64,000 nt of DNA from Actinophytocola sp. (lineage in GTDB: Bacteria > Actinomycetota > Actinomycetes > Mycobacteriales > Pseudonocardiaceae): positions 1,479-65,478 of the forward strand of contig WHTY01000015.1 of NCBI GenBank assembly GCA_009377475.1, given 5' to 3'. The translations under genes and the position numbers were made by a program. Positions 1,020-62,906 of the stretch are shown piece by piece (position 1 is the first letter of the stretch; the number at the start of each line of letters is the position of its first letter). The notes below the pieces were generated by a model. It was not told the origin of the DNA and did not search any database. It saw only the letters and a list, made by a program, of their open reading frames with translations.

Positions 1020-1124
1020 CATCGTGTCCCGCGCTCCCGACGTCGTGTCCCTCACCCACGACGCCGTGTCCCTCGTTCAGAACGTCGTGTCCCTCACTCA
1101 CGCCGTCGCTTGTCCCGGGCAGCG
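1020..1124 (+). repeat. 21-bp tandem repeat array (5 units, core CGyCGTGTCC), locus A
   Basis: Units at 1020, 1041, 1062, 1083 and 1104, for example cgtcgtgtccctcacccacga / cgccgtgtccctcgttcagaa / cgtcgtgtccctcactcacgc. It lies between the TetR start (988) and the acyl-CoA dehydrogenase start (1171). Confidence 0.85.
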
Positions 1125-1170
1125 ACACCGTGCCACTATGATAGCGAACAGTGTTCGTTTGGAGGTAGCC

Positions 1171-9159: not shown

Positions 9160-9232
9160 GGACGTTGCGACGGGGGTACGCCTGGAGCGCCGCCACCCGA
9201 CCGGGTGGCAGTTGAGCGGAATGGAGTGACCC

Positions 9233-9508
9233 ATGACGATTACTGGGCTGCTCAGCGCGCTGCTTGTCGGTGTGGTCATCGGTGCGCTGGCACGACTGAT
9301 CCTTCCTGGTAAGCAGGCGATCGGCATAATCGCGACGATCCTGGTCGGTATCCTGGCCGCGCTGCTTGGTACCTGGCTGACCAATCAGATGGGTATCGGT
9401 GACGCCTCCGGCTACGACGTGTTCGAGCTGATCGCTCAGGTCGCGCTCGCCGTGATCGGCGTCGGGGCGGTGTCTGGCTTCCTGCGCCGGTCGAAGTCCA
9501 AGGTCTAA
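9233..9508 (+). CDS. GlsB/YeaQ/YmgE-family (transglycosylase-associated) small membrane protein
   Basis: 91 aa with three hydrophobic helices and the family-typical sequence LLVGVVIGALARLILPGKQ. Confidence 0.8.
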   Translation: MTITGLLSALLVGVVIGALARLILPGKQAIGIIATILVGILAALLGTWLTNQMGIGDASGYDVFELIAQVALAVIGVGAVSGFLRRSKSKV

Positions 9509-36649: not shown

Positions 36650-36723
36650 GAACACGGCGTCGGGAACGGGGGACACGGCGTCGGGAACGGGGGACACGGC
36701 GTCGGGAACGGGGGACACGGCGC
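36650..36723 (-). repeat. 21-bp tandem repeat, about 3.5 units, locus C
   Basis: On the minus strand the unit is CGCCGTGTCCCCCGTTCCCGA. Two copies are perfect, one has a single mismatch, and one is partial. The array ends at the base next to the TAA stop (36724..36726) of the dehydroshikimate dehydratase gene. Confidence 0.9.
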
Positions 36724-38568
36724 TTACGTCCGTGCCAGACGGGTGTCGCGGTGGGCGGCCATGCGGACGGGCGCGTTGACCGCGCCGTAGCCGGTGTAGT
36801 CGTCGACACGCTGCACGATCTCGAAGAACACCCGGGAGCCGAGCAGCTCGGTGTGGCAGTGGAAGTACTCGCCGTGCGCGTCGCGGTCGTGGAGGACACC
36901 GTACGCGCGCATGTCGGCGAGCAGGTCCGGGTCGACATGTCGCCGGGCGTCGAGATCGTCGTAGTAGTTGTCCGGCACCCGCAGCAGCGGTGCGCCGCGC
37001 TCGGCGAGCGTCCGTGCGGTGGCGATGATGTCGTCGGTGTGGAACGCGATGTGCTGCGGGTCGGGGATGTCGGGTGCCCACTCGCCGCGACGGAGGAGCG
37101 AACCGTTGAGCACGATCCGCACCCGCCCTTTCGGATCGGTGACCGCACGGCTGCGTACCAGCCCGAACGGCGCGGCGAACTCACTGTCGTCGCGTGGATC
37201 GAGACCCAACACCGACCGATAGAACAGCGTGGCCTCGTCGAAGTAGTCGAACGGCTGGGTGAGTCCGATGTGGTCGATCCGGCTGATGCCCGCGATCGAC
37301 GTCGAAGCATCACCGGTGCGGATGAAGTCGGACAGCCAGCTCGCCGGGTCGGCACCGGTGCGGCAGAAGAACACCGACGAGCCATCCGGGGCCGCGACCG
37401 CCGTCAGGTCCGCCTCTTCTGGCCCTCGGGTTCGGGGGAGCGCCGGGGCACACAGCTCCTGGGCACGTCGTGCCGAGCGGCCAGGGTCGTCGGTCTCCAC
37501 GGCGACGGCGGCGATGCCCGTGGCGTCACCCGCGCCCGCGTTGAGCACGATCCGTGCCTCGCCTTGTTGCCAGAGCTGCACTGGCTTGGACCGATGCTGC
37601 CCGATGTGCGCGAAGCCCAGCGACGCCAGTGCTCGCCCCACGACCGGCCCGGAGTCGGCGTCCACCGCCAGCTCCGCGAAGGCGAACCCGGCCAGCTCGG
37701 GGGCGGCGGGTGGCCGCGAAAGCTCCGCTCGCGCATCGGGCCGGACGAGCTCGGGCACCCCGGCCAGTCCTTCCTCCAGCGCGATCAGCGAGCGCATCGC
37801 GTCCACCGCGGCGCGATCCGGCGGGGACTGCCGGAACACGTCGTTGAACACCTCGAGCGACAGCGGTCCCTGGTACTCGGCGGCAAGGACCTGCGCGGTG
37901 AACGACGTCAGATCGAACGCGCCCTGTCCTGGGAACAGCCGGTGGTGCCTGCTCCACTGCAGGACGTCCATGTCGAGCCGGGGCGCGTCTGCGAGTTGTA
38001 GGAAGAACAGCTTCTCGCCGGGAACGTCCGCGATACCGGACGGCTCCGGCTCGCGCGAGAGCACGTGGAAGCTGTCAAGGCACAACCCGAGCGCGGGGTG
38101 ATCGCCACGCCGCACGATCCCCCACGAGTGGCGCCACGTGTTGACGTGCCGCCCCCACGCCAGTGCCTCATACGCCACGCGCATGCCGTGTTCGGCGGCC
38201 TCGCTGGCAAGGCGGTGCAACTGTTCGGCCGCGAGGTCGTCGTCATCGACGGCGTCGGGGGACACCGATGAGCAGACCAGCACGGTGTCCGCGCCGAGAC
38301 GTCGCATCAGCGCGAACTTGTGCCGCGCCCGGCGCAGGTTCCGCTCCAACTGCTCCGGCCCGACCGCCTCGAAGTCGCGGAACGGCTGGTAGAGGTCGAT
38401 CGACAACCCCAGCTCGTCGCACCGCTCGCGCACCCGCTCCGGCCGCAACGGCGCCGCGATGAGGTCGTTCTCGAAGATCTCGACGCCGTCGAACCCGGCG
38501 GCGGCCGCCGCGCGCAGCTTGTCGTCGAGCGTGCCGGACAGGCACACGGTTGCGATGGATCGGCGCAT
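36724..38568 (-). CDS. qsuB: 3-dehydroshikimate dehydratase fused to a 4-hydroxyphenylpyruvate-dioxygenase-like domain (QsuB/QuiC type)
   Basis: The start is taken at the ATG at 38568. The N-terminal part is a xylose-isomerase-like TIM barrel (MRRSIATVCLSGTLDDKLRAAAAAGFDGVEIFENDL). The C-terminal part has vicinal-oxygen-chelate/HPPD-like repeats. Confidence 0.8.
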   Translation of the reverse strand: MRRSIATVCLSGTLDDKLRAAAAAGFDGVEIFENDLIAAPLRPERVRERCDELGLSIDLYQPFRDFEAVGPEQLERNLRRARHKFALMRRLGADTVLVCSSVSPDAVDDDDLAAEQLHRLASEAAEHGMRVAYEALAWGRHVNTWRHSWGIVRRGDHPALGLCLDSFHVLSREPEPSGIADVPGEKLFFLQLADAPRLDMDVLQWSRHHRLFPGQGAFDLTSFTAQVLAAEYQGPLSLEVFNDVFRQSPPDRAAVDAMRSLIALEEGLAGVPELVRPDARAELSRPPAAPELAGFAFAELAVDADSGPVVGRALASLGFAHIGQHRSKPVQLWQQGEARIVLNAGAGDATGIAAVAVETDDPGRSARRAQELCAPALPRTRGPEEADLTAVAAPDGSSVFFCRTGADPASWLSDFIRTGDASTSIAGISRIDHIGLTQPFDYFDEATLFYRSVLGLDPRDDSEFAAPFGLVRSRAVTDPKGRVRIVLNGSLLRRGEWAPDIPDPQHIAFHTDDIIATARTLAERGAPLLRVPDNYYDDLDARRHVDPDLLADMRAYGVLHDRDAHGEYFHCHTELLGSRVFFEIVQRVDDYTGYGAVNAPVRMAAHRDTRLART

Positions 38569-50710: not shown

Positions 50711-51490
50711 ATGAGCGAGGACGACGAGCGCGGTGCGCACTTCGTGCAGTCGCTGGCACGCGGGCTCGCGGTGATCCGCGCGTTCCATGCCGACGCCGCC
50801 GAGCTGACGCTGTCCGACGTCGCGAAGTCGACCGGGCTGACCCGCGCCGCTGCAAGGCGGTTCCTGCTGACGCTCGCCGACCTCGGGTACGTCCGCACCG
50901 ACGGCAAGCGCTTCTCGCTCACGCCTCGGGTGCTCGAACTCGGCTACGCCGTGCTGTCCAGCATGACGTTGCCCGACGTGGCGCAACCGCACCTGGAGAA
51001 GCTGTCCGGCGAGGTGGGGGAGTCCAGCTCGGTGTCCGTGCTCGACGGCACCGACGTCGTCTACGTCGCCCGCTTCGCGGTGTCGCGCATCATGACGGTC
51101 AGCATCACCGTCGGTACTCGCTTCCCCGCCTACGCGACGTCTATGGGGCACGTCCTGCTCGCGGGCGTCGACGACGACGCGCTGGAGGCGTACCTCGCCG
51201 AGGCCACCTTGGAGCCGTTGACCTCGCAGACCATCACGTCGCCGGAACGGCTGCGAGCGGAGCTTGTGCAGGTGCGTGAGCAGGGCTGGGCGCTGGTGGA
51301 CCAGGAACTGGAGGAGGGGCTGCGCTCGATCGCGGCGCCGCTGCGGGACCGGTCGGGCACGGTGATCGCGGCGGTCAACGTCGCCACCCACGCCAGTCGG
51401 ACCAGCGTCGACGTGCTGCGGCAGGAGATGCTCCCGCCGCTGCTGGCGGCGTGCGAGCGGATCGAGCAGGACCTCGCCGCCTCGGGGTGA
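50711..51490 (+). CDS. pcaR: IclR-family transcriptional regulator (PcaR-like)
   Basis: ATG at 50711 with AAAGGAG upstream. The IclR N-terminal HTH is VQSLARGLAVIRAF...LTLSDVAKSTGLTRAAARRFL. Confidence 0.85.
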   Translation: MSEDDERGAHFVQSLARGLAVIRAFHADAAELTLSDVAKSTGLTRAAARRFLLTLADLGYVRTDGKRFSLTPRVLELGYAVLSSMTLPDVAQPHLEKLSGEVGESSSVSVLDGTDVVYVARFAVSRIMTVSITVGTRFPAYATSMGHVLLAGVDDDALEAYLAEATLEPLTSQTITSPERLRAELVQVREQGWALVDQELEEGLRSIAAPLRDRSGTVIAAVNVATHASRTSVDVLRQEMLPPLLAACERIEQDLAASG

Positions 51491-51579
51491 GCCCGGCTCG
51501 CCGCCGCGGGCGGACACGTTCAGGCGCCCGAACCGGGTGACACGCTCCGCACCCGCACCGGGCGGCCCCCTGTCGCGAA

Positions 51580-51664
51580 GTCGATCAACTTACCGCGCGC
51601 TGTGACCACGCCGTGTCCGGTTCGTCCGGTACTGGTGGTCACAGCGCGCAGGTAGTTGATCAAC
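51580..51664. repeat. 85-bp palindromic element bounded by GTyGATCAAC (copy 2, best preserved)
   Basis: gtcgatcaacttaccgcgcgctgtgaccac / loop gccgtgtccggttcgtccggtactg / gtggtcacagcgcgcaggtagttgatcaac. It has a 15-bp perfect core stem. The TGA stop of the downstream minus-strand hydrolase (51660..51662) lies inside the right terminus. Confidence 0.85.
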
Positions 51665-53951
51665 TCCGGCCGGGCGACCCCGGCGGCAGCAGCGTGTAGG
51701 TGTGGCTGCCGGAGACGACCGGGAGCCGCGCCGCTCCCGGATCGACGTCCGCGTCGATGGGTACGCCGTCGCGCAACACCCGTGTGCTGGGCACGAACCG
51801 CCCAGTGAGCCGCACCTCGCCGTCGCGGTCAGCGGTGATCTCGACGGTCAGCGACTTACGGCCGTCCAGCCGCGCCCGAGCCAGGTCCAGGTCGACGGAA
51901 CCGACATTGGTCAGCTCCAGATTGAGCCGGTTGGCCACCGGGATCTTCGGGCGCTCACCCCAGGTGCGGTTCACCTCGGTGTAGGGCAGCGGCTCGACAC
52001 CTGCGTCCGTGCCGGACGTGCTCGGTGCGTCGCCGCGCCCGAAGCCGTGGCTGAAGGCGTCCACGGTGCCCTTGGCGGTGTCACCCGAAGGGTCTGCCAG
52101 GTCGAGGTCCGAGACCCAGTAGGCGTGGTCGTGCACCAGGCCGAGCGAGGGGTCGTCGCTGGCAGGCACCCGCGAGAACGTGACGTGGTGCGGGTCGCGG
52201 TTGACCCGCGCTTCGCCGAGGAAGTCCGTCGCCATCGGGATGTCGTAGCCGAGCGCGGCCAGCGTGAAGTGTTCGGCAGGCTGGTACACGACGAACCGGA
52301 AGCGGTAGCCGAGCTGGTCGAAACCGCGGATGCCGTGCTCCGGCGCGCCCAGGTTCTGCGCCCGTGGCCCGACGATCGGCACCAGCTGGTCCTCCCCGGC
52401 AGCCACGTTCAGGTACGGCACGTTGCGGGCATTCTCCAGCCACAGGTTCGTCAACGTCTCGATCCCGCCGGTCGGCGCCGCTGGCGGCAGCCAGATGCCG
52501 TCACCGGGCGGGCCGACGGTGCTGAACGCCTTGCCGAACAGGTCCGGATACAGCGTGCCGAGCCGGTACGTCGCGTAGCCGCCCATCGAGTAGCCGCTGA
52601 TCGCCGTGCGCTCCGGGTCGAGCGTGAAGTGGCGCGCGATGTCGTTCCACATCTCGAAGACGTCGTACTCCGCCTCGTGCTGGTACCAGCCGTCGGGGCC
52701 GCGCGAGAAGCTGGTGGCGACGAGGTTGTCGCGGGCCTCGCCGATCTGCTGGATGCCGGTGGTGCCGTTGTACTGCCAGTACCGCTGGCCCAGCGAGTGC
52801 AGCGCCAGCGTGAGGCCAGCCGGTTCGCCCGGCTCGTAGCTTTCCGGCACGTAGAGGCTGTAGGGCTGGAGTTGGCCCTTGTACTGCGGGAACCCGCCGT
52901 CGACGTCGCGGCCTTCGCCGAGGTCGAGCCTGCTCGGGAACATCCGGATCGTGGTGCCGTGCTCCGGCACCGAGTCGCGCCGCACTCCCGCGTCGAAGTC
53001 GATCGGGTGGGAGAACCGGGTCGGCTCGTGCGCCGCGATCGCCTCGGACTGCCGGGTGTCCGGTGGCGTGTTGCCGCCGAGCACCGGCTCGTCGAACCGG
53101 AACGCCAGGTTGAACACGCCGGACGGCGTCGGGTCGAGCGGGCCCGCGCCACCAGGTGCGGTTTCGTTCGCGGTGGCCCCCGGCCGGAGCCACCCGCCGT
53201 TGCTGCGGTCGTGGAGTCCGGTGGCGACGGTGGTTTCCCAGGTGCCGCTCGGGTCGCTCACGTCGCGAGGCACCGTGATGGTCACCTGGTTCGCCGTCAG
53301 GTCGGTGCTGACGTCCAGCGGCGTGGTCTCACCGGTGGCGGACGACGTGTGCTCCGCGCCGGTGCCCCACGCGGTGATCACCTCGTCGGTGCCGGGGAAC
53401 GGCGCGCCGGGATCGCGCGGGAGCGTGTCGGAGCCGGTGTTGTCGTTGCCATCGACGTCGAAAGCGATTGCCGCGATGGTGGCGTCGCGTGCCAGCAGCG
53501 TGTTGAACGTGAGCCGGTAGGTCACCCGGTCCGGCTCGGTGGCGATGCGGAACTCCACCAGGTCGGCGGCGTTGCCACCGTATCGGGCGTCGTCGGTCGG
53601 ATAGGTGACGTCGCCCGCGCAGACGGACTGCGAGTCCGCGCCAGCGCCGTCGGAGTTGGCGCCGCAGTCGTCGTAGAGGAAGTCTTGGTACAGGTATTCG
53701 CCGTCCCGGTAGGCGTCGGTGCCGGACACCAGCAACGGCTCGGCGTCGAACCGCGGGTCGTGGTTACCCAGGCTCGGCGCGTCCGGGGGCGGGGCGTAGA
53801 GGACGTCGGGGCCGGGTCGCGCACCGGATTCGACCGAGGGCAGCGAGGAGGGCGGGTCGTCGGGTTGCGTCGCGGTGGCGGGCGCTGCCCCGGTCATCAC
53901 CACGAGCGCCGCTGCCAGGCTGCCGATCCGGGTCGTACGCGAGAGTGTCAT
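51660..53951 (-). CDS. Secreted multidomain alpha/beta hydrolase (esterase/peptidase S9-like) with an N-terminal carbohydrate-binding/DOMON-like region
   Basis: 763 aa with a signal peptide (MTLSRTTRIGSLAAALVVMTGAAPATA) and the nucleophile elbow GYSMGG. GGAAGG lies upstream of the ATG. The exact activity is unknown. Confidence 0.65.
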   Translation of the reverse strand: MTLSRTTRIGSLAAALVVMTGAAPATATQPDDPPSSLPSVESGARPGPDVLYAPPPDAPSLGNHDPRFDAEPLLVSGTDAYRDGEYLYQDFLYDDCGANSDGAGADSQSVCAGDVTYPTDDARYGGNAADLVEFRIATEPDRVTYRLTFNTLLARDATIAAIAFDVDGNDNTGSDTLPRDPGAPFPGTDEVITAWGTGAEHTSSATGETTPLDVSTDLTANQVTITVPRDVSDPSGTWETTVATGLHDRSNGGWLRPGATANETAPGGAGPLDPTPSGVFNLAFRFDEPVLGGNTPPDTRQSEAIAAHEPTRFSHPIDFDAGVRRDSVPEHGTTIRMFPSRLDLGEGRDVDGGFPQYKGQLQPYSLYVPESYEPGEPAGLTLALHSLGQRYWQYNGTTGIQQIGEARDNLVATSFSRGPDGWYQHEAEYDVFEMWNDIARHFTLDPERTAISGYSMGGYATYRLGTLYPDLFGKAFSTVGPPGDGIWLPPAAPTGGIETLTNLWLENARNVPYLNVAAGEDQLVPIVGPRAQNLGAPEHGIRGFDQLGYRFRFVVYQPAEHFTLAALGYDIPMATDFLGEARVNRDPHHVTFSRVPASDDPSLGLVHDHAYWVSDLDLADPSGDTAKGTVDAFSHGFGRGDAPSTSGTDAGVEPLPYTEVNRTWGERPKIPVANRLNLELTNVGSVDLDLARARLDGRKSLTVEITADRDGEVRLTGRFVPSTRVLRDGVPIDADVDPGAARLPVVSGSHTYTLLPPGSPGRS

Positions 53952-55143: not shown

Positions 55144-55851
55144 TCACCGCGTCAATGACGCCGCGAGCGCCGAGGAACCCTTCACGTGGACGTCGCCGTT
55201 GGCGATCGCCTTGTCCAGTCGTACGTCGCCGCGAGCCAGCGCGGTCGCGGTCGCGGTGTCGAGGCGCACCAGGACATCGACGTCGGTGCCGTCAGTGCCG
55301 TTCGCGACGTCGGTGCCGTCAGTGCCGTTCGCGACGTCGGTGCCGTTCGCGACGTCGGTGAAACCGTCAGCGTCGAGGAACACCACGTCGTGCGCGTCGA
55401 TGCGCAGGCACCAGCCGTGCTCGTCCACCTGCACCCGCGCCGTGCCGGTGGCGCCATCGGCAGCCTGCCGGAGCGCGGTGGCGACCGGGATGGCGAACCA
55501 GTGCCCGCGCAGCGCGTCGGTAGGATCGGCGTCATCGCTGAGCAGCGCCGATCCCCAGCTCGCGAGCCCGGCGAGCACCGGCACAAGGCCGCGTCCGCGC
55601 GCCGTCAGCTCGTACACCCACACGGGGACGCTCAGCCGCCGCCGCACAACGAGCCCGTTGGCCTCCATGTCCTTGAGTCGCGTCGCGAGGACGTCGGTGC
55701 TGATGCCGGGCAGGTCGGCGTGCAGGTCGGTGTACCGGCGGGGCCCGAGCGCGAGCTCGCGCACGATCAGCAGGGTCCAGCGCTCGCCGACGACGTCCAG
55801 CGACCTGGCGATGGGGCAGTAGTGCGCATAGCTACGACGCGACATGCGCAT
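55144..55851 (-). CDS. HxlR-family winged-helix regulator with a C-terminal SCP2-like extension
   Basis: The HxlR core is YCPIARSLDVVGERWTLLIVRELALGPRRYTDLHADLPGISTDVLATRLKDMEANGLV. The start is at 55851 or 55845. There is no obvious RBS, so the transcript may be leaderless. Confidence 0.8.
   Translation of the reverse strand: MRMSRRSYAHYCPIARSLDVVGERWTLLIVRELALGPRRYTDLHADLPGISTDVLATRLKDMEANGLVVRRRLSVPVWVYELTARGRGLVPVLAGLASWGSALLSDDADPTDALRGHWFAIPVATALRQAADGATGTARVQVDEHGWCLRIDAHDVVFLDADGFTDVANGTDVANGTDGTDVANGTDGTDVDVLVRLDTATATALARGDVRLDKAIANGDVHVKGSSALAASLTR
55279..55374 (-). repeat. In-frame coding tandem repeat (27-bp x2, then 18-bp and partial units) inside the HxlR-family gene
   Basis: gacgtcggtgccgtcagtgccgttcgc occurs twice, followed by gacgtcggtgccgttcgc. 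The array encodes DVANGTDGT-type repeats. Confidence 0.85.
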
Positions 55852-58621: not shown

Positions 58622-59251
58622 CTATGCCTGTGGCTGCCGAATGCCGTCGAACGCCACCTTGGTCACAGCGTCGGCCAATGCGGCGCTGTTGGCTCCGTTG
58701 CGCGGTTTGTACCACTCGATCAGCGAGTTGACCATGCCGAACAGCAGGCGCGCGGCGATCGCCGGATCGACGTCCGGCCGGATGTCGCCCTCGGCTTCCG
58801 CCTGCTCAACGAGCCGCGCGACGAGCTGATCGAACTCCCGCCGCTTGGCAAGCGCGGCACGCTCCACCTTGGTGTTGCCGCGCACCCGCAGCAGCAGCGT
58901 GACGTACAGCAGCCGCTCGGACAGCACAAGCACGCTGCCCCTGACCAGGTGTTCCAGCCTGTCGATCGCGCGGCCGTCGAGTTGTTCGGTCTCGTCGGCG
59001 ACGGCGAACAGGCCGTCCAGCGCGCGGTCGACGGCGAGCCGCAGCAGTTCCTCCTTGCCGGACACGTGGTGGTAGATAGCGGACTTGGTGATGCCGAGCT
59101 TGCGGGCGAGTTCGTCCATGCTGGTGCCGTCGTAGCCGCGCTCGTAGAACAGCCTGGCCGCCACCTGCAGCAGCGAGTCGAGGTCGTAGCCGGGTCGCCC
59201 CCTGCGCCTGCCGGTCGTGGCGCGCAGCTTGCCGTTTTCCGCCGTCGTCAT
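58622..59251 (-). CDS. TetR/AcrR-family transcriptional regulator
   Basis: 209 aa with the HTH sequence GYDGTSMDELARKLGITKSAIYHHVSGKEELL. Confidence 0.9.
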   Translation of the reverse strand: MTTAENGKLRATTGRRRGRPGYDLDSLLQVAARLFYERGYDGTSMDELARKLGITKSAIYHHVSGKEELLRLAVDRALDGLFAVADETEQLDGRAIDRLEHLVRGSVLVLSERLLYVTLLLRVRGNTKVERAALAKRREFDQLVARLVEQAEAEGDIRPDVDPAIAARLLFGMVNSLIEWYKPRNGANSAALADAVTKVAFDGIRQPQA

Positions 59252-59291
59252 ACCCGGAAGTGTCGCAGAACGCGTCGTGCGTTCGGCGTCA

Positions 59292-59375
59292 GTGCGCGAT
59301 GTCCGTGAACGCCGCCGTGTCCGACACTCCGGACGCCGTGTCCGACGCTCACGCCGCCGTGTCCGGCATTCCTCA
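59292..59375 (+). repeat. 21-bp tandem repeat, 4 units, locus E
   Basis: The units are cgccgtgtccgacactccgga / cgccgtgtccgacgctcacgc / cgccgtgtccggcattcctca, preceded by a degenerate unit. The array ends 2 nt before the P450 stop codon (59378..59380) and begins 41 nt upstream of the TetR start (59251). Confidence 0.85.
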
Positions 59376-59377
59376 CG

Positions 59378-60727
59378 TCACCGGGCGTGCAGCTCCACCG
59401 GGTGGCCGTCCTTCGGGAACGGCAACGACGTGTAGTCCATCGGCGCCCGGTAGTCCGGCGGGACACCCCAGGTGAATCGCCGTAACAGGTGATGCATGAC
59501 CAGCTTGATCTCCACTGCGGAGAAGTGCATGCCGAGGCATTTGTGCACGCCGCCGCCGAATGGCTGCCAGGCGTACCGGTGAACCTTGTCCTCGCGGCGG
59601 TCCGACGCGAACCGGCCGGGGTCGAACCGCTCCGGCTCCGGCCAGTACTCGGGCATGTGGTGCGTGAAGATCGGTGTCGCGACGACGAACGAGCCCTTCG
59701 GCACGAAATACCCCAGCACCTCGGTGTCCTTGACGGCGTTCCGCGCCATCGTCGGCAACGGCGTCACCAACCGCATGGCCTCCTTCATCACCAGATCCAG
59801 TGACTCCAGCTGCCCCAGTTGGTCGTACGTCGGATAGGCGTCCAGCGCCAGCGACTCGTCCCGGCACTGCTGCTGCCACTCGGGATGCTGGCCGAGGTAG
59901 GACATCATCGTGGAGATCGTGATGGTCGACGTGTCGTGCGCCGCCATGAGCAGGAAGATCATGTGGTTGATGACGTCGTCGTCGCTGAACCGCTCGCCGT
60001 CGTCCGACTCGGCCTGACACAACGCGCTGAAGAGGTCGTCGCCGTCGCCCGCGCGCCGCGCGGGGAGGTACTGCCGCAGGAACGTCTCGAGCGCGGCCCG
60101 CCCTCGCAGGCCACGCCACCAGCGGCCGCCTGGCATCGGGAGCCGCACGATCGCCGTACCGGCTTGCACGCAGTCGATGAACGCCTTGTTCACCCGGTCG
60201 AGTTGCGTGCGCGTGGTGCCTTCCGCGCCGCCCATGAAGATGCTGGTCGCCAGGTCGAGCGTCAACGTCTTGGTCGCGGGATAGACACGGAAACCCTGCT
60301 GCGGTCGCCAGTCGGCCAGCCCCTCCTCGATCGCAAGGTTCAGTCCTTCGGCGTAGCGCGCGAGGCGTTGACTGGTGAACGCCTGCTGCATGATCCGCCG
60401 GTGCGCCATGTGCTCGTCGAAGTCGAGCAACATCAGTCCCCGGTCGAAGAACGGCCCGATCAGGTAACGCCAACTGTCGCCGTTGGCGAACGCGCGGTCG
60501 CGATTGGACAGCACCACGCCACAGGCGTCCGGGCCGAGCAGCGAAACGAACCGCGTGCCGAAGCCGCCGAACCACGACACCGGCCCGTACCGCTCGTACC
60601 GCTCCCGCCACATCGCTACCGGATCTCGCATGTAGCGAGCGGTGTAGCCGACGATCGGCAAGCCGGGGTTGCCGGGGATCGGCGCGAGGTCGCTGTGCGG
60701 CGGCGCTGGGGCGAGAACGGTGCCCAT
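59378..60727 (-). CDS. Cytochrome P450 monooxygenase
   Basis: 449 aa with the heme-binding loop FGGGVHKCLGMHFS and the ExxR motif (EAMR). GGGAGA lies upstream of the ATG. Confidence 0.9.
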   Translation of the reverse strand: MGTVLAPAPPHSDLAPIPGNPGLPIVGYTARYMRDPVAMWRERYERYGPVSWFGGFGTRFVSLLGPDACGVVLSNRDRAFANGDSWRYLIGPFFDRGLMLLDFDEHMAHRRIMQQAFTSQRLARYAEGLNLAIEEGLADWRPQQGFRVYPATKTLTLDLATSIFMGGAEGTTRTQLDRVNKAFIDCVQAGTAIVRLPMPGGRWWRGLRGRAALETFLRQYLPARRAGDGDDLFSALCQAESDDGERFSDDDVINHMIFLLMAAHDTSTITISTMMSYLGQHPEWQQQCRDESLALDAYPTYDQLGQLESLDLVMKEAMRLVTPLPTMARNAVKDTEVLGYFVPKGSFVVATPIFTHHMPEYWPEPERFDPGRFASDRREDKVHRYAWQPFGGGVHKCLGMHFSAVEIKLVMHHLLRRFTWGVPPDYRAPMDYTSLPFPKDGHPVELHAR

Positions 60728-60798: not shown

Positions 60799-61425
60799 AT
60801 GGGGGACGTGCCGACACCGACGCGCCCCTACCGCGGGGTCAGTGCGCGCGACCGCAAAGCGCAGCGCAGGGAACAGCTTCTCGACGCGGGTCTCGAACTG
60901 CTGGGTACGCAGGGTTGCGCGCGCACCACGATGACCGCCGTTTGTGTGACCGCGAAGCTCACCGAGCGCTACTTCTACGAGAGCTTCCGCAATCGAGACG
61001 AATTGCTGCTTGCCGTCATGGACCGGATCGCGGATCAGCTCCGCGACATCGTGCTCGACGCGCTGGAGCGGGCCGTCGGCGATCCCGCGGAGCGGGGGCG
61101 GGCGGCAATCGCGGCGTTTGTCGAGGTCATCGAGGGTGACCAGCGTATCGGCAGGGCGGCGCTGGTCGAGTCGGCCAGCACGGAGGTCTTGCGCCGACGG
61201 CGGCACCAGCTACTGCGGACGTTCGCGCAGCTCGTCGTCACCCAGGCGAGGGAACTCTATGGCGCGGACGCGCTGCCGTCGCCACGCGACGAGATCAACG
61301 CGCTGCTGTTCATCGGCGGGCTCGCGGAGTTGATCGTGGCGTGGCTGAACGGCGAGATCGACGCGACCGGCGACGACATCGTGGACGCCGCCGCGCACCA
61401 GTTCGCCACCAGCATGCACATGTGA
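60799..61425 (+). CDS. TetR/AcrR-family transcriptional regulator
   Basis: 208 aa with the HTH sequence GCARTTMTAVCVTAKLTERYFYESFRNRDELL. It is divergent from the P450 gene. Confidence 0.9.
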   Translation: MGDVPTPTRPYRGVSARDRKAQRREQLLDAGLELLGTQGCARTTMTAVCVTAKLTERYFYESFRNRDELLLAVMDRIADQLRDIVLDALERAVGDPAERGRAAIAAFVEVIEGDQRIGRAALVESASTEVLRRRRHQLLRTFAQLVVTQARELYGADALPSPRDEINALLFIGGLAELIVAWLNGEIDATGDDIVDAAAHQFATSMHM

Positions 61426-61441
61426 GGGCGTCACGAACGCA

Positions 61442-61609
61442 GGACACAGCGTCGGGAACGTCGGACACAACGGCGGGAGTGCAGGACACAGCGGCGTGAG
61501 CGTCGGACACAACGGCGGGAGTGCAGGACACAGCGGCGTGAGCGTCGGACACAACGGCGGGAGTGCAGGACACAGCGGCGTGAGCGTCGGACACGGCGCA
61601 ACGCGCGGG
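61442..61609 (-). repeat. 21-bp tandem repeat, 8 units organised as three perfect 42-bp super-units, locus F
   Basis: On the plus strand, ggacacaacggcgggagtgca and ggacacagcggcgtgagcgtc alternate perfectly three times across 61463..61588. Diverged units flank them at 61442 and 61589. The minus-strand reading is CGyyGTGTCC... The array begins 16 nt after the TetR stop and ends 19 nt before the PucR-type ATG. Confidence 0.95.
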
Positions 61610-61628
61610 CACCCTCTAGGCTCGCGGA

Positions 61629-62906
61629 ATGCGGGAGCGCGGTGGAGCACACGCGGACCGCTCGGACGTCGTCGCCGAGCGGATCGCCACGATCGCGGAC
61701 GTCCTCGCCGAGGAGTTCGGACCGCTGGCGCAGGCGCTGGCGGACCGGATTGCCAGCGAGATCGAACAGCTCGGTGACGACGAGCGGCTGATCCAGCTAC
61801 TCGGCGCGAGCGTGGCGGGCAACGTCGAGACCGTGCTGCATATGTTCCAGCACGGCATCGACATCGACCGGGTGGAAGTGCCGTCGGCCGCGGTGGAGTA
61901 CGCCCGCAGGCTCGCCCAGCACGGTGTCGCGGTGGACGCGATGATCAGGGCGTACCGGCTCGGGCAGGACTCCTTTCTGCAACGCGCGTTCGAGGAGCTG
62001 ACCGGCGACGATCCGGCGCTGCTCGCCGAGGTCGCGCAGCGGCTCACCGCGATCAGCTTCGCCTACATCGACCGGGTGTCGCAGCAGGTGCTCACCGTCT
62101 ACGAGGACGAGCGGGAGCGCTGGCTCGCCAACCGCAACGCGGCAAGAGCCGCGCGGATCAGGGAACTGCTCGACGAGAGCCACGTCGACGTCCTCCTCGC
62201 GGAGGAGACCCTGGGCTACCGGCTCCAGCGCCAGCGACACCTCGGCGTGGTCCTGTGGGCGGTGGAACGCGGTTCGCCGGTCAGCCAGATCTCGGTGCTC
62301 GAACGGTACTCCCGCACCCTTGCCGAGCACCTTGGCTGCGGGGCGCGGCCGCTGTTCGTGCCCACCGACGAGGCCGAAGGCTGGGCGTGGCTGCCGATCC
62401 ACCGCGACGCCCCTGAACCGACCGCCGACAGCCTCGCGCCAGCCGCGCGGGCGTGCGGCGACGACGTCAACATCGCCATCGGACGCCCTGGGCGCGGCGT
62501 GGACGGCTTCCGCAGCACCCACCAGCAGGCACGGCAGGCCCAGGCCGTCGCGGTGATCGCGGGCGGCGAGGCATCACTGACGCTGTTCCGCGACGTCGGG
62601 CCGGTCGCGCTGCTGTGCGCCGACCTGCCCGCCACCCGGGTGTGGGTGCAGGACACGCTCGGCCCGCTCGCCATCGACGACGGCCAGCACGCCAGGCTGC
62701 GCGAGACCCTGCGGGTGTTCCTGGCGGCCGGGTGCAGCTACCTCGCGGCGGCGTCGGCGTTGACGCTGCACAAGAACACGGTGCAATACCGGGTGCGGCG
62801 CGCGGAGCAGGAGCTGGGCAGGGGCGTCCGTGACGACGCGCTGTCCGTCGAGCTGGCGCTGCGCGCCTGCCACTGGTTCGGGGGCGCCGTGCTGCGGCAG
62901 CCCTGA
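61629..62906 (+). CDS. PucR/CdaR-family transcriptional regulator
   Basis: 425 aa with the C-terminal HTH LTLHKNTVQYRVRRAEQELG. The exact start is uncertain. Confidence 0.8.
   Translation: MRERGGAHADRSDVVAERIATIADVLAEEFGPLAQALADRIASEIEQLGDDERLIQLLGASVAGNVETVLHMFQHGIDIDRVEVPSAAVEYARRLAQHGVAVDAMIRAYRLGQDSFLQRAFEELTGDDPALLAEVAQRLTAISFAYIDRVSQQVLTVYEDERERWLANRNAARAARIRELLDESHVDVLLAEETLGYRLQRQRHLGVVLWAVERGSPVSQISVLERYSRTLAEHLGCGARPLFVPTDEAEGWAWLPIHRDAPEPTADSLAPAARACGDDVNIAIGRPGRGVDGFRSTHQQARQAQAVAVIAGGEASLTLFRDVGPVALLCADLPATRVWVQDTLGPLAIDDGQHARLRETLRVFLAAGCSYLAAASALTLHKNTVQYRVRRAEQELGRGVRDDALSVELALRACHWFGGAVLRQP

What the first reader, a model, noticed from the sequence alone, without database searches (positions are those of the whole stretch)
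61442..61609. Largest array of a dispersed 21-bp-period repeat family (core CGCCGTGTCC / GGACACGGCG)
Eight head-to-tail 21-bp units include three perfect 42-bp super-units, which points to very recent expansion or contraction. The same 21-bp module occurs at four other intergenic loci in this window: 1020..1124, 18564..18605, 36650..36723 and 59292..59375. It occurs on both strands. The 10-nt core is conserved and the 11-nt remainder is variable but recurs between loci. For example, CGTTGTGTCCGACGCTCACGC here matches CGCCGTGTCCGACGCTCACGC at 59334 except at 2 positions.

A 21-bp period is two helical turns, so every core lies on the same face of the DNA. That is the geometry of an iteron-like protein-binding array. 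Three of the five loci flank TetR genes. This array also fills almost the whole space between a TetR stop and the start of a PucR-type regulator (ATG at 61629), so it must contain or displace that gene's promoter and 5' UTR. I do not recognise it as a named repeat family.
Basis: seen in the sequence. Interest (0 to 1): 0.65.

Follow-up and report, generated by a model that had tools for sequence, protein, structure and literature searches.

The report
Dispersed 21-bp minisatellite repeat family
This is a real family of 21-base tandem repeats, restricted to Haloechinothrix-type actinobacteria, that fills non-essential DNA and changes copy number between species; it behaves like a REP/MIRU-style genomic repeat, and nothing here shows it is a protein-binding 'iteron' switch for TetR or PucR genes.

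Summary
The array at 61442-61598 has eight 21-bp units, including three perfect 42-bp dimers. The same unit (GGACACRRCG + KCSKGARYGNN) forms arrays at 1020, 18564, 36650 and 59313, all intergenic.

The window comes from an unsampled Haloechinothrix-like genome, about 86% identical in DNA to H. halophila and H. salitolerans. The family occurs at many loci in Haloechinothrix species, allied MAGs, Prauserella oleivorans and a few others. It is absent from about 3.8 Mb of other actinobacterial loci.

Orthologous sites vary in copy number. At this site the counts are 8, 2 and 0, so the 42-bp triplication is lineage-specific.

Family-wide:
- Arrays favour convergent and co-directional gaps and avoid divergent promoter regions.
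- They also sit in frame inside protein linkers and tails.
- They show no RNA or DNA structure, no nearby transposase and no TetR enrichment.
- Neighbouring arrays are inverted relative to each other.
- Each array is polar, with one sharp canonical end and one decaying end.

Best reading: a new interspersed minisatellite family of the REP/MIRU/STRR kind. It evolves by slippage and recombination, and its core is kept by an unknown sequence-specific factor. The invariant GACAC is also the WhiA motif, but that is only a lead. The iteron reading is unproven, and the TetR link is incidental.

The parts
61442..61598 (+). Array A5: eight 21-bp units, with GGACACRRCG cores at 61442+21i. The 3' end is sharp and ends in the canonical core GGACACGGCG (61589-61598).
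61463..61588 (+). Three identical 42-bp dimers (GGACACAACGGCGGGAGTGCA + GGACACAGCGGCGTGAGCGTC). This is a lineage-specific expansion between an ancestral first unit and last unit.
   Evidence: The H. salitolerans ortholog has only the first-like and last-like units.
61617..61622 (+). A -10-like TAGGCT, 6 nt upstream of the PucR ATG, which implies a leaderless mRNA. It lies outside the array and is conserved in relatives.
   Evidence: Sequence. L111 has the same element, L191 has it in a promoter remnant, and L112 has TACGCT. The leaderless reading is inference.
61629..62906 (+). PucR-family regulator gene (GGDEF_2 + HTH_30) downstream of the array.
60799..61425 (+). TetR-family gene. Its stop codon lies 16 nt before the first full unit, facing the decaying end of the array.
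59313..59375 (-). Array A4: three units, reading CGCCGTGTCC on the + strand. It lies between the P450 stop (59378) and the TetR start (59251), at an indel junction: relatives carry about 1.3 kb extra here.
36650..36722 (+). Array A3: four units, with three identical 21-mers, in a convergent gap. The sharp end lies 1 nt from the stop codon of 36724-38547(-).
18564..18605 (-). Array A2: two units starting directly after the TGA of 18168-18563(+). It fills a gap of about 60 bp between convergent genes. Orthologs have 3 units (H. salitolerans, bin57) or about 0 (H. halophila).
1020..1115 (-). Array A1: four units plus one degenerate unit, between divergent TetR (start 988) and acyl-CoA dehydrogenase (start 1171). 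The H. salitolerans ortholog has the same unit count.
51609..51618 (+). Solo core CGCCGTGTCC in the loop of a 34-nt-arm inverted repeat between convergent genes. Whether it belongs to the family is uncertain; it may be chance.

Best explanation
The array is the largest local copy of a chromosome-wide interspersed 21-bp minisatellite family. The family is restricted to Haloechinothrix and a few allied Pseudonocardiaceae. It is the same general kind of element as REP/BIME, MIRU or cyanobacterial STRR repeats, but it is unrelated to them in sequence.

Shown:
- The unit is asymmetric and non-palindromic, and it is not a structured RNA.
- Arrays occupy DNA that is free to vary: gaps at the 3' ends of genes, and in-frame protein linkers and tails, which a period of 21 = 7 codons allows.
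- Copy number differs between species at the same site.
- The window's array grew from an ancestral two-unit array by triplication of a 42-bp dimer.
- Arrays sit at indel and rearrangement junctions.

Inferred:
- Growth and shrinkage happen by slipped-strand mispairing or unequal recombination.
- Spread and homogenisation happen by ectopic conversion that overwrites unconstrained DNA.
- An unidentified sequence-specific trans-acting factor, a binding protein or a recombination or repair enzyme, recognises the invariant GGACAC..CG core. This would explain three things: cores diverge less than spacers in the best-matched orthologous array (A1), every array ends sharply in a canonical core at one end and decays at the other, and neighbouring arrays are always inverted.
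- The local consequence at 61442-61598 is incidental. The array replaces the DNA upstream of the -10 of a leaderless PucR promoter and separates it from the TetR stop. It could therefore alter PucR expression, but that is not what the family exists for.
For: Non-random and intergenic:
- The core occurs 19 times against 2.67 expected, and all arrays are intergenic.

Lineage restriction:
- A scan of GTDB genomes piles up in H. halophila (at least 12 loci), an 'Amycolatopsis' MAG (about 19), 'Actinophytocola' MAGs (about 13), H. salitolerans, A. taiwanensis and P. oleivorans.
- In 240 loci (3.95 Mb) that were not chosen for repeats, true arrays occur only in that group, plus one other actinomycete MAG that carries a variant unit.

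Copy number at orthologous sites:
- This site: 8 (window), 2 (H. salitolerans), 0 (H. halophila).
- A2: 2, 3, 3 and about 0.
- Site Y: 7 against 1.
- A1: 4 and 4. There the cores differ at 3 of 40 positions, the spacers at 12 of 44, and I judged the flanks by eye at about 25-30%.

No structure or known RNA:
- Folding z-scores are +0.31 and -0.15, and Rfam gives no hit.

No associated genes:
- 78 flanking genes are diverse. No TetR or transposase family appears among the families matched by two or more of them.

Context:
- By my tally of the table there are about 15 arrays in convergent gaps, about 17 in co-directional gaps and 1 in a divergent gap. Gene positions come from my own GC3-based ORF caller.
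- Arrays often lie 0-20 bp from a stop codon.

In-frame copies in genes:
- The tail of a membrane protein, in two genera.
- The linker of an AAA ATPase, where the array replaces an unrelated linker of similar length in the whole Haloechinothrix group. It has 4 units in most members and 6 in one.

Replacement rather than clean insertion:
- 22 nt in H. halophila correspond to 34 nt of array in H. salitolerans.

Polarity:
- First against last core, p = 7e-5. Flanks, p = 0.004.

Neighbouring arrays within 3 kb:
- 12 of 12 pairs are inverted and none is direct.
Against: - No mechanism of dispersal was demonstrated and no partner protein was identified.
- Core conservation could reflect selection for a cellular function, such as protein binding or termination, rather than selfish maintenance.
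- In this window three arrays (A1, A4, A5) point their canonical end at the start of a regulator gene 30-61 bp away. That hints at a local promoter role.
- Core-versus-spacer divergence is clear only at A1. At a second orthologous site, which I counted by hand from the alignment, the cores differ at about 7 of 30 positions and the spacers at about 13 of 33.
- No same-species strains were available, so VNTR behaviour is shown only between species.
Confidence: 0.6

Rival explanations
1. Iteron-like protein-binding arrays. A monomeric or head-to-tail DNA-binding protein reads the asymmetric core once every two helical turns and polymerises along one face of the DNA. The arrays would then act as architectural or regulatory landmarks or as protein sinks. 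WhiA, whose motif is GACAC, is the only known actinobacterial candidate.
For: - The phasing is exactly 21 bp, and the conserved patches at positions 1-6 and 12-16 lie about one helical turn apart.
- At A1 the cores are more conserved than the spacers or flanks between species.
- The invariant bases A3 C4 A5 C6, with G2 at about 86%, spell GACAC. That is the motif WhiA binds as a monomer (PMC3781837; PMC10243135).
- In this window A1, A4 and A5 lie 30-61 bp upstream of regulator start codons, all in the same orientation.
Against: - No binding data exist.
- GACAC is only 5 bp and is common in high-GC DNA. The arrays conserve at least 14 positions, more than WhiA is known to read.
- Solo cores are not enriched: 1 outside the arrays against about 2.7 expected by chance.
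- Family-wide, most arrays sit at gene 3' ends, in convergent gaps or inside ORFs, and are rare in divergent promoter regions.
- The distance from the last core to the PucR -10 differs by about 10 bp between orthologs: 18 nt in the window and 8 nt in L111.
- There is no rep gene or origin feature nearby.
Confidence: 0.22
2. A transcription-level element. The C-rich strand (CGCCGUGUCC...), when transcribed, acts as a Rho-utilisation site or terminator and insulator at gene 3' ends. Inverted array pairs form long hairpins that terminate transcription in both directions.
For: - Arrays are enriched after stop codons and in convergent gaps, sometimes filling the whole gap so that no room is left for a hairpin terminator. 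A2 is one case.
- Strand composition is strongly skewed, with G-form GC skew of +0.20 to +0.36.
- By my tally of the table, the array next to a stop codon is in the C-rich sense in about 16 of 21 cases.
- Inverted pairs are common.
Against: - The bias disappears when only unambiguous single arrays in co-directional gaps are counted. In my tally, the canonical end faces a stop codon in 7 and a start codon in 3.
- A4 and A5 present the G-rich strand to the upstream transcripts.
- Arrays also lie inside ORFs, where termination would be harmful.
- There is no intrinsic-terminator signal.
Confidence: 0.08
3. Relics of a mobile element. The arrays would be multi-site transposase-binding ends, as in Tn7, Mu or Tn402-type transposons, or MITE-like derivatives of such elements. 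Inverted array pairs would be the two ends.
For: - Neighbouring arrays are always inverted. In 10 of 12 pairs the sharp canonical ends face outward.
- The units are 21 bp, like many transposase-binding sites, and contain TGT/ACA.
- Distribution among genera is patchy.
Against: - There are no target-site duplications at array boundaries.
- The segments enclosed by inverted pairs are unrelated to each other and carry ordinary genes.
- No transposase family appears among the families matched by two or more of the 78 flanking genes.
- Arrays reach 12 or more units, far more than known transposon ends.
- Orthologous flanks are unchanged with and without arrays, and the difference is a replacement, not a clean insertion.
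- There are no hits on plasmids, and only 6 single two-core matches, which I did not inspect, in viral contigs.
Confidence: 0.07
4. Chance similarity or assembly artefact.
For: None beyond the general risk that short-read assemblies collapse or expand tandem repeats, so the exact count of 8 units could be off.
Against: - None of 100 shuffles reached the observed core count.
- Orthologous arrays occur in several independent assemblies.
Confidence: 0.01

Closest known systems
MIRU (mycobacterial interspersed repetitive units) and other bacterial VNTR minisatellites
   Same: - Head-to-tail units at many dispersed, mostly intergenic loci of an actinobacterial chromosome.
- Copy number differs at orthologous loci.
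- No associated mobility gene.
   Different: - The unit is 21 bp, against about 46-101 bp (MIRU length is from my own knowledge), and the arrays were not compared with MIRU sequences here.
- Arrays occur on both strands relative to neighbouring genes, and as inverted pairs.
- There is no sign of small coupled ORFs.
- The arrays are polar, and some in-frame copies lie inside genes.
REP/BIME elements of enterobacteria and pseudomonads
   Same: - High-copy, extragenic, and biased to gene 3' ends and convergent gaps.
- Often in inverted pairs.
- Lineage-specific consensus.
   Different: - REP units are imperfect palindromes that form hairpins and are linked to RAYT transposases (own knowledge).
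- This unit is asymmetric and has no fold signal.
- No RAYT-like gene was seen near the arrays.
Cyanobacterial STRR (short tandemly repeated repetitive) sequences
   Same: Lineage-restricted arrays of a short tandem unit, scattered over the chromosome, with unknown function.
   Different: STRR units are heptamers (own knowledge). Here the unit is a 21-mer with a 10-bp core and a semi-conserved 11-bp part.
Plasmid or phage iterons (Rep-binding direct repeats, 17-22 bp, about two turns apart)
   Same: - Direct repeats phased at two helical turns.
- A conserved core plus a less conserved part.
- Asymmetric units suited to monomer binding.
   Different: - Iterons form one or a few clusters at an origin, next to a rep gene, DnaA boxes and AT-rich DNA.
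- Here there are many chromosomal loci, including inside ORFs, with none of those origin features.
WhiA binding site (GACAC) of actinobacteria
   Same: The invariant centre of every unit is GACAC. WhiA binds this asymmetric motif as a monomer in either orientation (PMC3781837, PMC10243135).
   Different: - WhiA sites are described as single, promoter-proximal sites with no extended motif.
- Here at least 14 positions are conserved, the sites come only as phased arrays, and most lie at gene 3' ends.
- Binding was not tested.
MPTR (major polymorphic tandem repeat) of Mycobacterium tuberculosis
   Same: A 10-bp conserved core alternating with a short variable spacer in tandem arrays (own knowledge).
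   Different: MPTR has a 15-bp period and is the coding sequence of PPE-MPTR proteins. This family is mainly non-coding.

Membership tests
Iterons of a replication origin | Tandem direct repeats of 17-22 bp phased about two helical turns apart | tested here: met
   Exact 21-bp spacing of 8 cores.
Iterons of a replication origin | Located at an origin, next to a cognate rep gene, DnaA boxes and an AT-rich unwinding element | tested here: not met
   The flanks are TetR, P450 and PucR genes. The window has only 2 one-mismatch DnaA boxes, both far from the arrays. GC content is 60-75% throughout 60.8-62.2 kb.
Iterons of a replication origin | One or a few clusters per replicon | tested here: not met
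Iterons of a replication origin | Bound by a Rep initiator | not testable with these tools
   This needs EMSA or ChIP.
REP/BIME | High-copy extragenic repeat, biased to 3' ends and convergent gaps | tested here: met
REP/BIME | The unit is an imperfect palindrome that forms a stem-loop | tested here: not met
   The unit is asymmetric. Folding the array on either strand gives z = +0.31 and -0.15.
REP/BIME | A cognate RAYT (IS200/IS605-like) transposase in the genome | tested here: inconclusive
   No such family appears among the families matched by two or more of the 78 flanking genes. Whole genomes could not be searched.
MIRU-type interspersed minisatellite (VNTR) | Head-to-tail units at many dispersed intergenic loci | tested here: met
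MIRU-type interspersed minisatellite (VNTR) | Copy number varies at orthologous loci | tested here: met
   Counts of 8/2/0, 2/3/3/~0 and 7/1 between species. Variation between strains of one species was not testable because the source genome and close strains are not in the collections.
MIRU-type interspersed minisatellite (VNTR) | MIRU unit length (about 46-101 bp), sequence relatedness, and small ORFs overlapping neighbouring genes | tested here: not met
   The unit is 21 bp, so the length criterion fails. The only frame whose third positions vary has low GC3, which argues against small ORFs (and my own frame analysis). No sequence comparison with MIRU was made. This is the same kind of element but not a member of that family.
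CRISPR array | Repeats of 23-55 bp separated by unique spacers of similar length, with cas genes nearby | tested here: not met
   The core is 10 bp. The 11-bp 'spacers' recur and have their own consensus. The neighbours are TetR, P450 and PucR genes.
WhiA target site | Contains the asymmetric GACAC motif | tested here: met
   A3 C4 A5 C6 are 100% conserved in the window's units and at least 80% in every group. G2 is about 72-93%. The motif is as given in PMC3781837.
WhiA target site | Bound by WhiA, with WhiA-dependent expression of the adjacent gene | not testable with these tools
   This needs ChIP-seq or EMSA in Haloechinothrix.
Transposon ends / MITE | Terminal inverted repeats flanked by a target-site duplication | tested here: not met
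   Inverted array pairs exist, but the 10 pairs examined have no duplications at their boundaries.
Transposon ends / MITE | A conserved internal sequence or a linked transposase | tested here: not met
   The inner segments are unrelated to each other and carry ordinary genes. No transposase family appears among the families matched by two or more of the 78 flanking genes.
Known structured RNA (Rfam) | Match to a curated covariance model | tested here: not met
   No matches at gathering threshold in the window.

The most novel reading that the evidence does not exclude
The arrays are made and kept by a dedicated, still unknown sequence-specific system. One form would be a DNA-binding protein that reads GGACAC..CG once every two turns and builds perhaps a hundred or more one-sided nucleoprotein filaments on the chromosome (extrapolated from about one array per 20-40 kb). 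WhiA or a lineage-specific factor could play that role. The other form would be a repeat-adding or gene-conversion activity that overwrites unconstrained DNA from a canonical terminal core. The second form would explain the array polarity, the replacement of pre-existing sequence (including protein linkers), the strict inversion of neighbouring arrays and the position of arrays at indel junctions.
Probability: 0.15. Interest if true: 0.75.

Novelty: new member of a known kind. Interest (0 to 1): 0.4.

Why it matters
- It adds a previously undescribed family of interspersed repeats for a halophilic branch of the Pseudonocardiaceae. My searches found no paper on it.
- The arrays could serve as ready-made VNTR markers for typing Haloechinothrix strains.
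- They mark hotspots of indels, rearrangements and promoter remodelling.
- They show a DNA repeat colonising protein linkers in frame.
- If the conserved core turns out to be the site of a trans-acting protein, whether WhiA or a new factor, the family would be a natural system for studying cooperative one-face binding or templated repeat spreading in bacteria.
- For annotating this window, it warns against reading the TetR/PucR neighbourhood as a dedicated regulatory module.

Tried and rejected
- **Structured RNA or hairpin.** Folding both strands of 61426-61628 gave z of about 0, and Rfam found nothing.
- **Protein-coding repeat at this locus.** The frames through the array have low GC3 or no plausible start and stop. 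The apparent period-3 variability falls in a frame with rare codons. Rejected here, though in-frame copies do exist in other genes.
- **CRISPR.** Rejected on repeat and spacer sizes and on the recurring 'spacers'.
- **Origin iterons.** No rep gene, DnaA boxes or AT-rich DNA.
- **TetR association.** Not reproduced in 78 flanking genes of relatives.
- **Transposon or MITE.** No target-site duplication, no conserved interior and no transposase.
- **Phage or plasmid origin.** Only 6 single two-core matches in viral contigs, and none in plasmids.
- **Repeated -35 elements or ECF-type promoters.** The spacing from GGACA or GGAAC to any -10-like or CGTC element does not fit, and the consensus scan found no promoter or terminator.
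- **OmpR/GlnR/MtrA-type paired direct half-sites.** The conserved patches are 13 and 8 bp apart, not 10-11. The resemblance to the MtrA motif is from memory only and was not tested.
- **Orientation relative to replication.** The window's arrays point both ways although GC skew is uniformly positive.
- **Finding the source genome or close strains for a strain-level VNTR test.** Three exact-protein look-ups and one metagenome scan found nothing.
- **Literature.** Four searches found no description of the family.
Full report
**Observation**

The sequence at 61442-61598 is eight head-to-tail 21-bp units, each starting with GGACAC(A/G)(A/G)CG. Units 2-7 form three identical 42-bp dimers at 61463-61588, and perfect 42-periodicity spans 61459-61594.

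The same unit, on one strand or the other, forms arrays at four other places:
- 1020-1115: 4 units plus a degenerate one.
- 18564-18605: 2 units.
- 36650-36722: 4 units, three of them identical.
- 59313-59375: 3 units.

The degenerate core CGYYGTGTCC occurs 19 times against 2.67 expected, and no shuffle reached 19. Eighteen of the 19 hits lie in these arrays.

The window is about 69% G+C. By a GC3-based gene call of my own, not a validated gene finder, it is 90.3% coding. All five arrays are intergenic and make up 6.8% of the intergenic DNA.

One refinement: the '11-nt variable remainder' has its own consensus, KCSKGARYGNN. Positions 12, 15-16 and 19 are about 85-100% conserved.

**Source and distribution**

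The source genome is not in the collections. The closest relatives are Haloechinothrix halophila and H. salitolerans, at about 86% DNA identity, with the P450 91% and 90% identical in protein. Two MAGs labelled 'Actinophytocola' (Dino_bin55 and Dino_bin57) are about equally close.

I scanned one genome per GTDB species for two perfect cores 21 bp apart. About half of the hits came from this group:
- H. halophila: at least 12 loci.
- An 'Amycolatopsis' MAG: about 19 loci.
- The Actinophytocola MAGs: about 13 loci.
- H. salitolerans, A. taiwanensis and Prauserella oleivorans.

The remaining hits were singletons.

I then scanned 240 loci (3.95 Mb) that had been fetched for unrelated proteins. True arrays appeared only in the Haloechinothrix group, in P. 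oleivorans and in one other actinomycete MAG that carries a variant unit. Four other hits were false positives in coding DNA. In the group, density is roughly one array of three or more units per 20-40 kb.

Viral contigs gave only 6 single matches, which I did not inspect. Plasmids gave none. Four literature searches found no description of the family.

**Evolution at orthologous sites**

*After the TetR stop (this site).* The window has 8 units. H. salitolerans has 2 units (GAACACAGCG tcgggaacggg GGACACGGCG). These are followed by the same 'gggcaccctcTAGGCTcgcggRATGcgggagcgcggtgg', which there is a remnant of the PucR promoter and first codons fused to an oxidoreductase gene. H. halophila has no array at all. 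The window's first and last units are therefore ancestral, and the three 42-bp dimers are a lineage-specific expansion.

*PucR in another relative.* In Dino_bin55 the PucR ortholog (80% identical in protein) is also preceded by arrays, here an inverted pair. Its upstream neighbour is a different gene.

*A1.* The window and H. salitolerans have the same 4+1 units. Cores differ at 3 of 40 positions and spacers at 12 of 44. I judged the neighbouring non-repeat DNA by eye at about 25-30%.

*A2.* There are 2, 3 (degenerate), 3 and about 0 units in the window, H. salitolerans, bin57 and H. halophila respectively.

*Two more sites.* One has 7 units against 1. At the other, both species carry arrays of 4 and 3 units. 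I counted by hand from the alignment that their cores differ at about 7 of 30 positions and their spacers at about 13 of 33.

*A4.* Both relatives carry about 1.3 kb that the window lacks: a MerR gene, a membrane-protein gene and a gene remnant. H. salitolerans has a 2-unit array there. In H. halophila an unrelated 22-nt stretch of the gene remnant occupies the place of that 34-nt array. This is a replacement, not a clean insertion.

Taken together, arrays persist at their sites across speciation, change copy number, and lie at indel junctions.

**Anatomy of the family**

I analysed about 56 arrays from the window and related loci. Gene positions come from my own GC3-based caller, so the context counts are approximate.

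1. Folding shows no structure, with z = +0.31 and -0.15, and Rfam finds nothing.
2. By my tally of the table, about 15 arrays lie in convergent gaps, about 17 in co-directional gaps and 1 in a divergent gap. The window's own gap lengths would predict about 9, 17 and 7. Many arrays lie within 0-20 bp of a stop codon.
3. The 78 flanking genes are a miscellany of metabolic and housekeeping genes. No TetR family and no transposase appears among the families matched by two or more of them.
4. About 3-4 arrays lie in frame inside real genes. One is in the acidic C-terminal tail of a polytopic membrane protein in H. halophila and in its bin55 ortholog, as DAVSDVP-type heptads. Another is in the linker between the N domain and the D1 domain of a Cdc48-like AAA ATPase. 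There, the five Haloechinothrix-group sequences aligned carry array-encoded AVSxxPD heptads, 4 units in four of them and 6 in one. Other Pseudonocardiaceae have an unrelated linker of similar length.
5. Arrays within 3 kb of each other are always inverted, 12 of 12 pairs. In 10 pairs the C-rich form comes first, so the canonical ends face outward. The other 2 pairs are abutting, with the canonical ends facing inward. The enclosed segments (55-2351 bp) are unrelated to each other and contain ordinary genes, and there are no target-site duplications.
6. Arrays are polar. On the G-rich strand the 3' end stops abruptly right after a near-perfect core, GGACACGGCG in 22 of 46 arrays. The 5' end decays through degenerate units such as GAACACGGCG and GAACTCGGCG. 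For first against last core p = 7e-5, and for the flanks p = 0.004.

**The local promoter**

A -10-like TAGGCT (61617-61622) lies 6 nt before the PucR ATG. It is conserved in bin55, in the H. salitolerans remnant and, as TACGCT, in a Haloechinothrix MAG.

From general knowledge of actinobacterial promoters (TANNNT at -10, frequent leaderless mRNAs), I infer a leaderless PucR transcript. The array ends 18 nt upstream of the -10, so it supplies the -35 and upstream DNA but does not displace the -10.

The spacing from the last core to the -10 is 18 nt here and 8 nt in bin55. That argues against a fixed activator-site geometry. The consensus scan found no sigma-70 promoter and no intrinsic terminator in 61300-61700.

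**Interpretation**

The family has the natural history of a bacterial interspersed repeat:
- It is restricted to one lineage.
- It has a high copy number.
- It is confined to DNA that tolerates change.
- It is variable in copy number.
- It is associated with rearrangements.

I take that as the best explanation (confidence 0.6). Growth and loss would occur by slippage or unequal exchange. That step is inferred, but the perfect 42-bp triplication is what such events produce.

Three features suggest that some trans-acting factor recognises the core: cores diverge less than spacers at A1, the arrays are polar, and neighbouring arrays are strictly inverted. I could not identify that factor.

The invariant GACAC equals the WhiA motif (PMC3781837, PMC10243135). 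This is a lead from a 5-bp identity, not a test.

The rivals are:
- Protein-binding arrays with a cellular function (0.22).
- A Rho-type terminator or insulator on the C-rich strand (0.08).
- Transposon-end relics (0.07).
- Artefact (0.01).

The origin-type features are absent, and the TetR link does not generalise.

**Novelty and limits**

This is a new member of a known kind, bacterial interspersed tandem repeats. It has unusual details: an asymmetric 21-mer, polarity, obligate inversion of neighbours, and in-frame colonisation of protein linkers. I rate its interest as moderate.

Limits:
- No strain-level comparison was possible.
- Gene contexts rest on my own GC3-based caller.
- No experimental data were available.

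Noticed in passing
window 51576-51668: A long inverted repeat (34-nt arms, 85% complementary, 25-nt loop) lies between the convergent genes ending at 51490 and 51660. It is a likely bidirectional terminator. Its loop holds the only solo copy of the repeat core (51609-51618).
   Followed up: partly
window 1145-1157: A perfect palindrome CGAACA-G-TGTTCG lies next to a TATGAT -10-like element, between array A1 and the acyl-CoA dehydrogenase start (GGAGG then GTG at 1171). It is conserved in H. salitolerans and is probably the operator of the divergent TetR (353-988).
   Followed up: partly
window 55278-55346: A perfect 27-bp tandem repeat, 2.6 copies (CGACGTCGGTGCCGTCAGTGCCGTTCG), overlaps 9-bp and 18-bp periodicities. 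It lies inside the ORF called at 55144-55851(-), so it is an in-frame 9-residue repeat. It is unrelated to the 21-bp family.
   Followed up: no
L001 2677-4410(-) and L010 3798-5360(+); L027 2-2158(+) with P0001-P0004: The 21-bp repeat is translated in frame in real proteins of relatives. One case is DAVSDVP-type heptads in the acidic tail of a polytopic membrane protein, in two genera. The other is AVSxxPD heptads that replace the N-D1 linker of a Cdc48-like AAA ATPase in the whole Haloechinothrix group (4 or 6 units).
   Followed up: yes
L191 about 9230-9300 (H. salitolerans), compared with window 61600-61650: H. salitolerans keeps the PucR promoter and its first six codons (TAGGCTcgcgggATGcgggagcgcggtgg), fused directly upstream of an FAD-dependent oxidoreductase gene. 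H. halophila has neither the array nor the remnant. In Dino_bin55 the oxidoreductase lies upstream of the array and PucR. The locus has been rearranged repeatedly around the array.
   Followed up: partly
window 59251-59378, compared with L191 and L194 11350-12680: The window lacks about 1.3 kb that both Haloechinothrix relatives carry: a MerR-family gene, a small membrane-protein gene and a hydrolase-like gene remnant. Only the last eight or so MerR codons survive next to array A4.
   Followed up: partly
window 18624 to about 18800 (-): A small conserved ORF with a transmembrane helix (…HGKKVIISSAIVAVIAAFVLGI…) converges on the 18168-18563 gene. It is conserved in H. halophila and bin57 but deleted in H. 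salitolerans. My gene caller missed it.
   Followed up: no
L309 9310-9470 (actinomycete MAG DX1.bin91); L326 19853-19925 (P. oleivorans): Variant units of the same family occur outside Haloechinothrix. One is CTGCGGACACGGCGTCGCAGG, as an inverted pair just after a terminator hairpin. The other is a perfect 4.6-copy array of CGCCGTGTCTGCCGTTCGTGT. Each genome has its own consensus flavour, which fits concerted evolution.
   Followed up: partly
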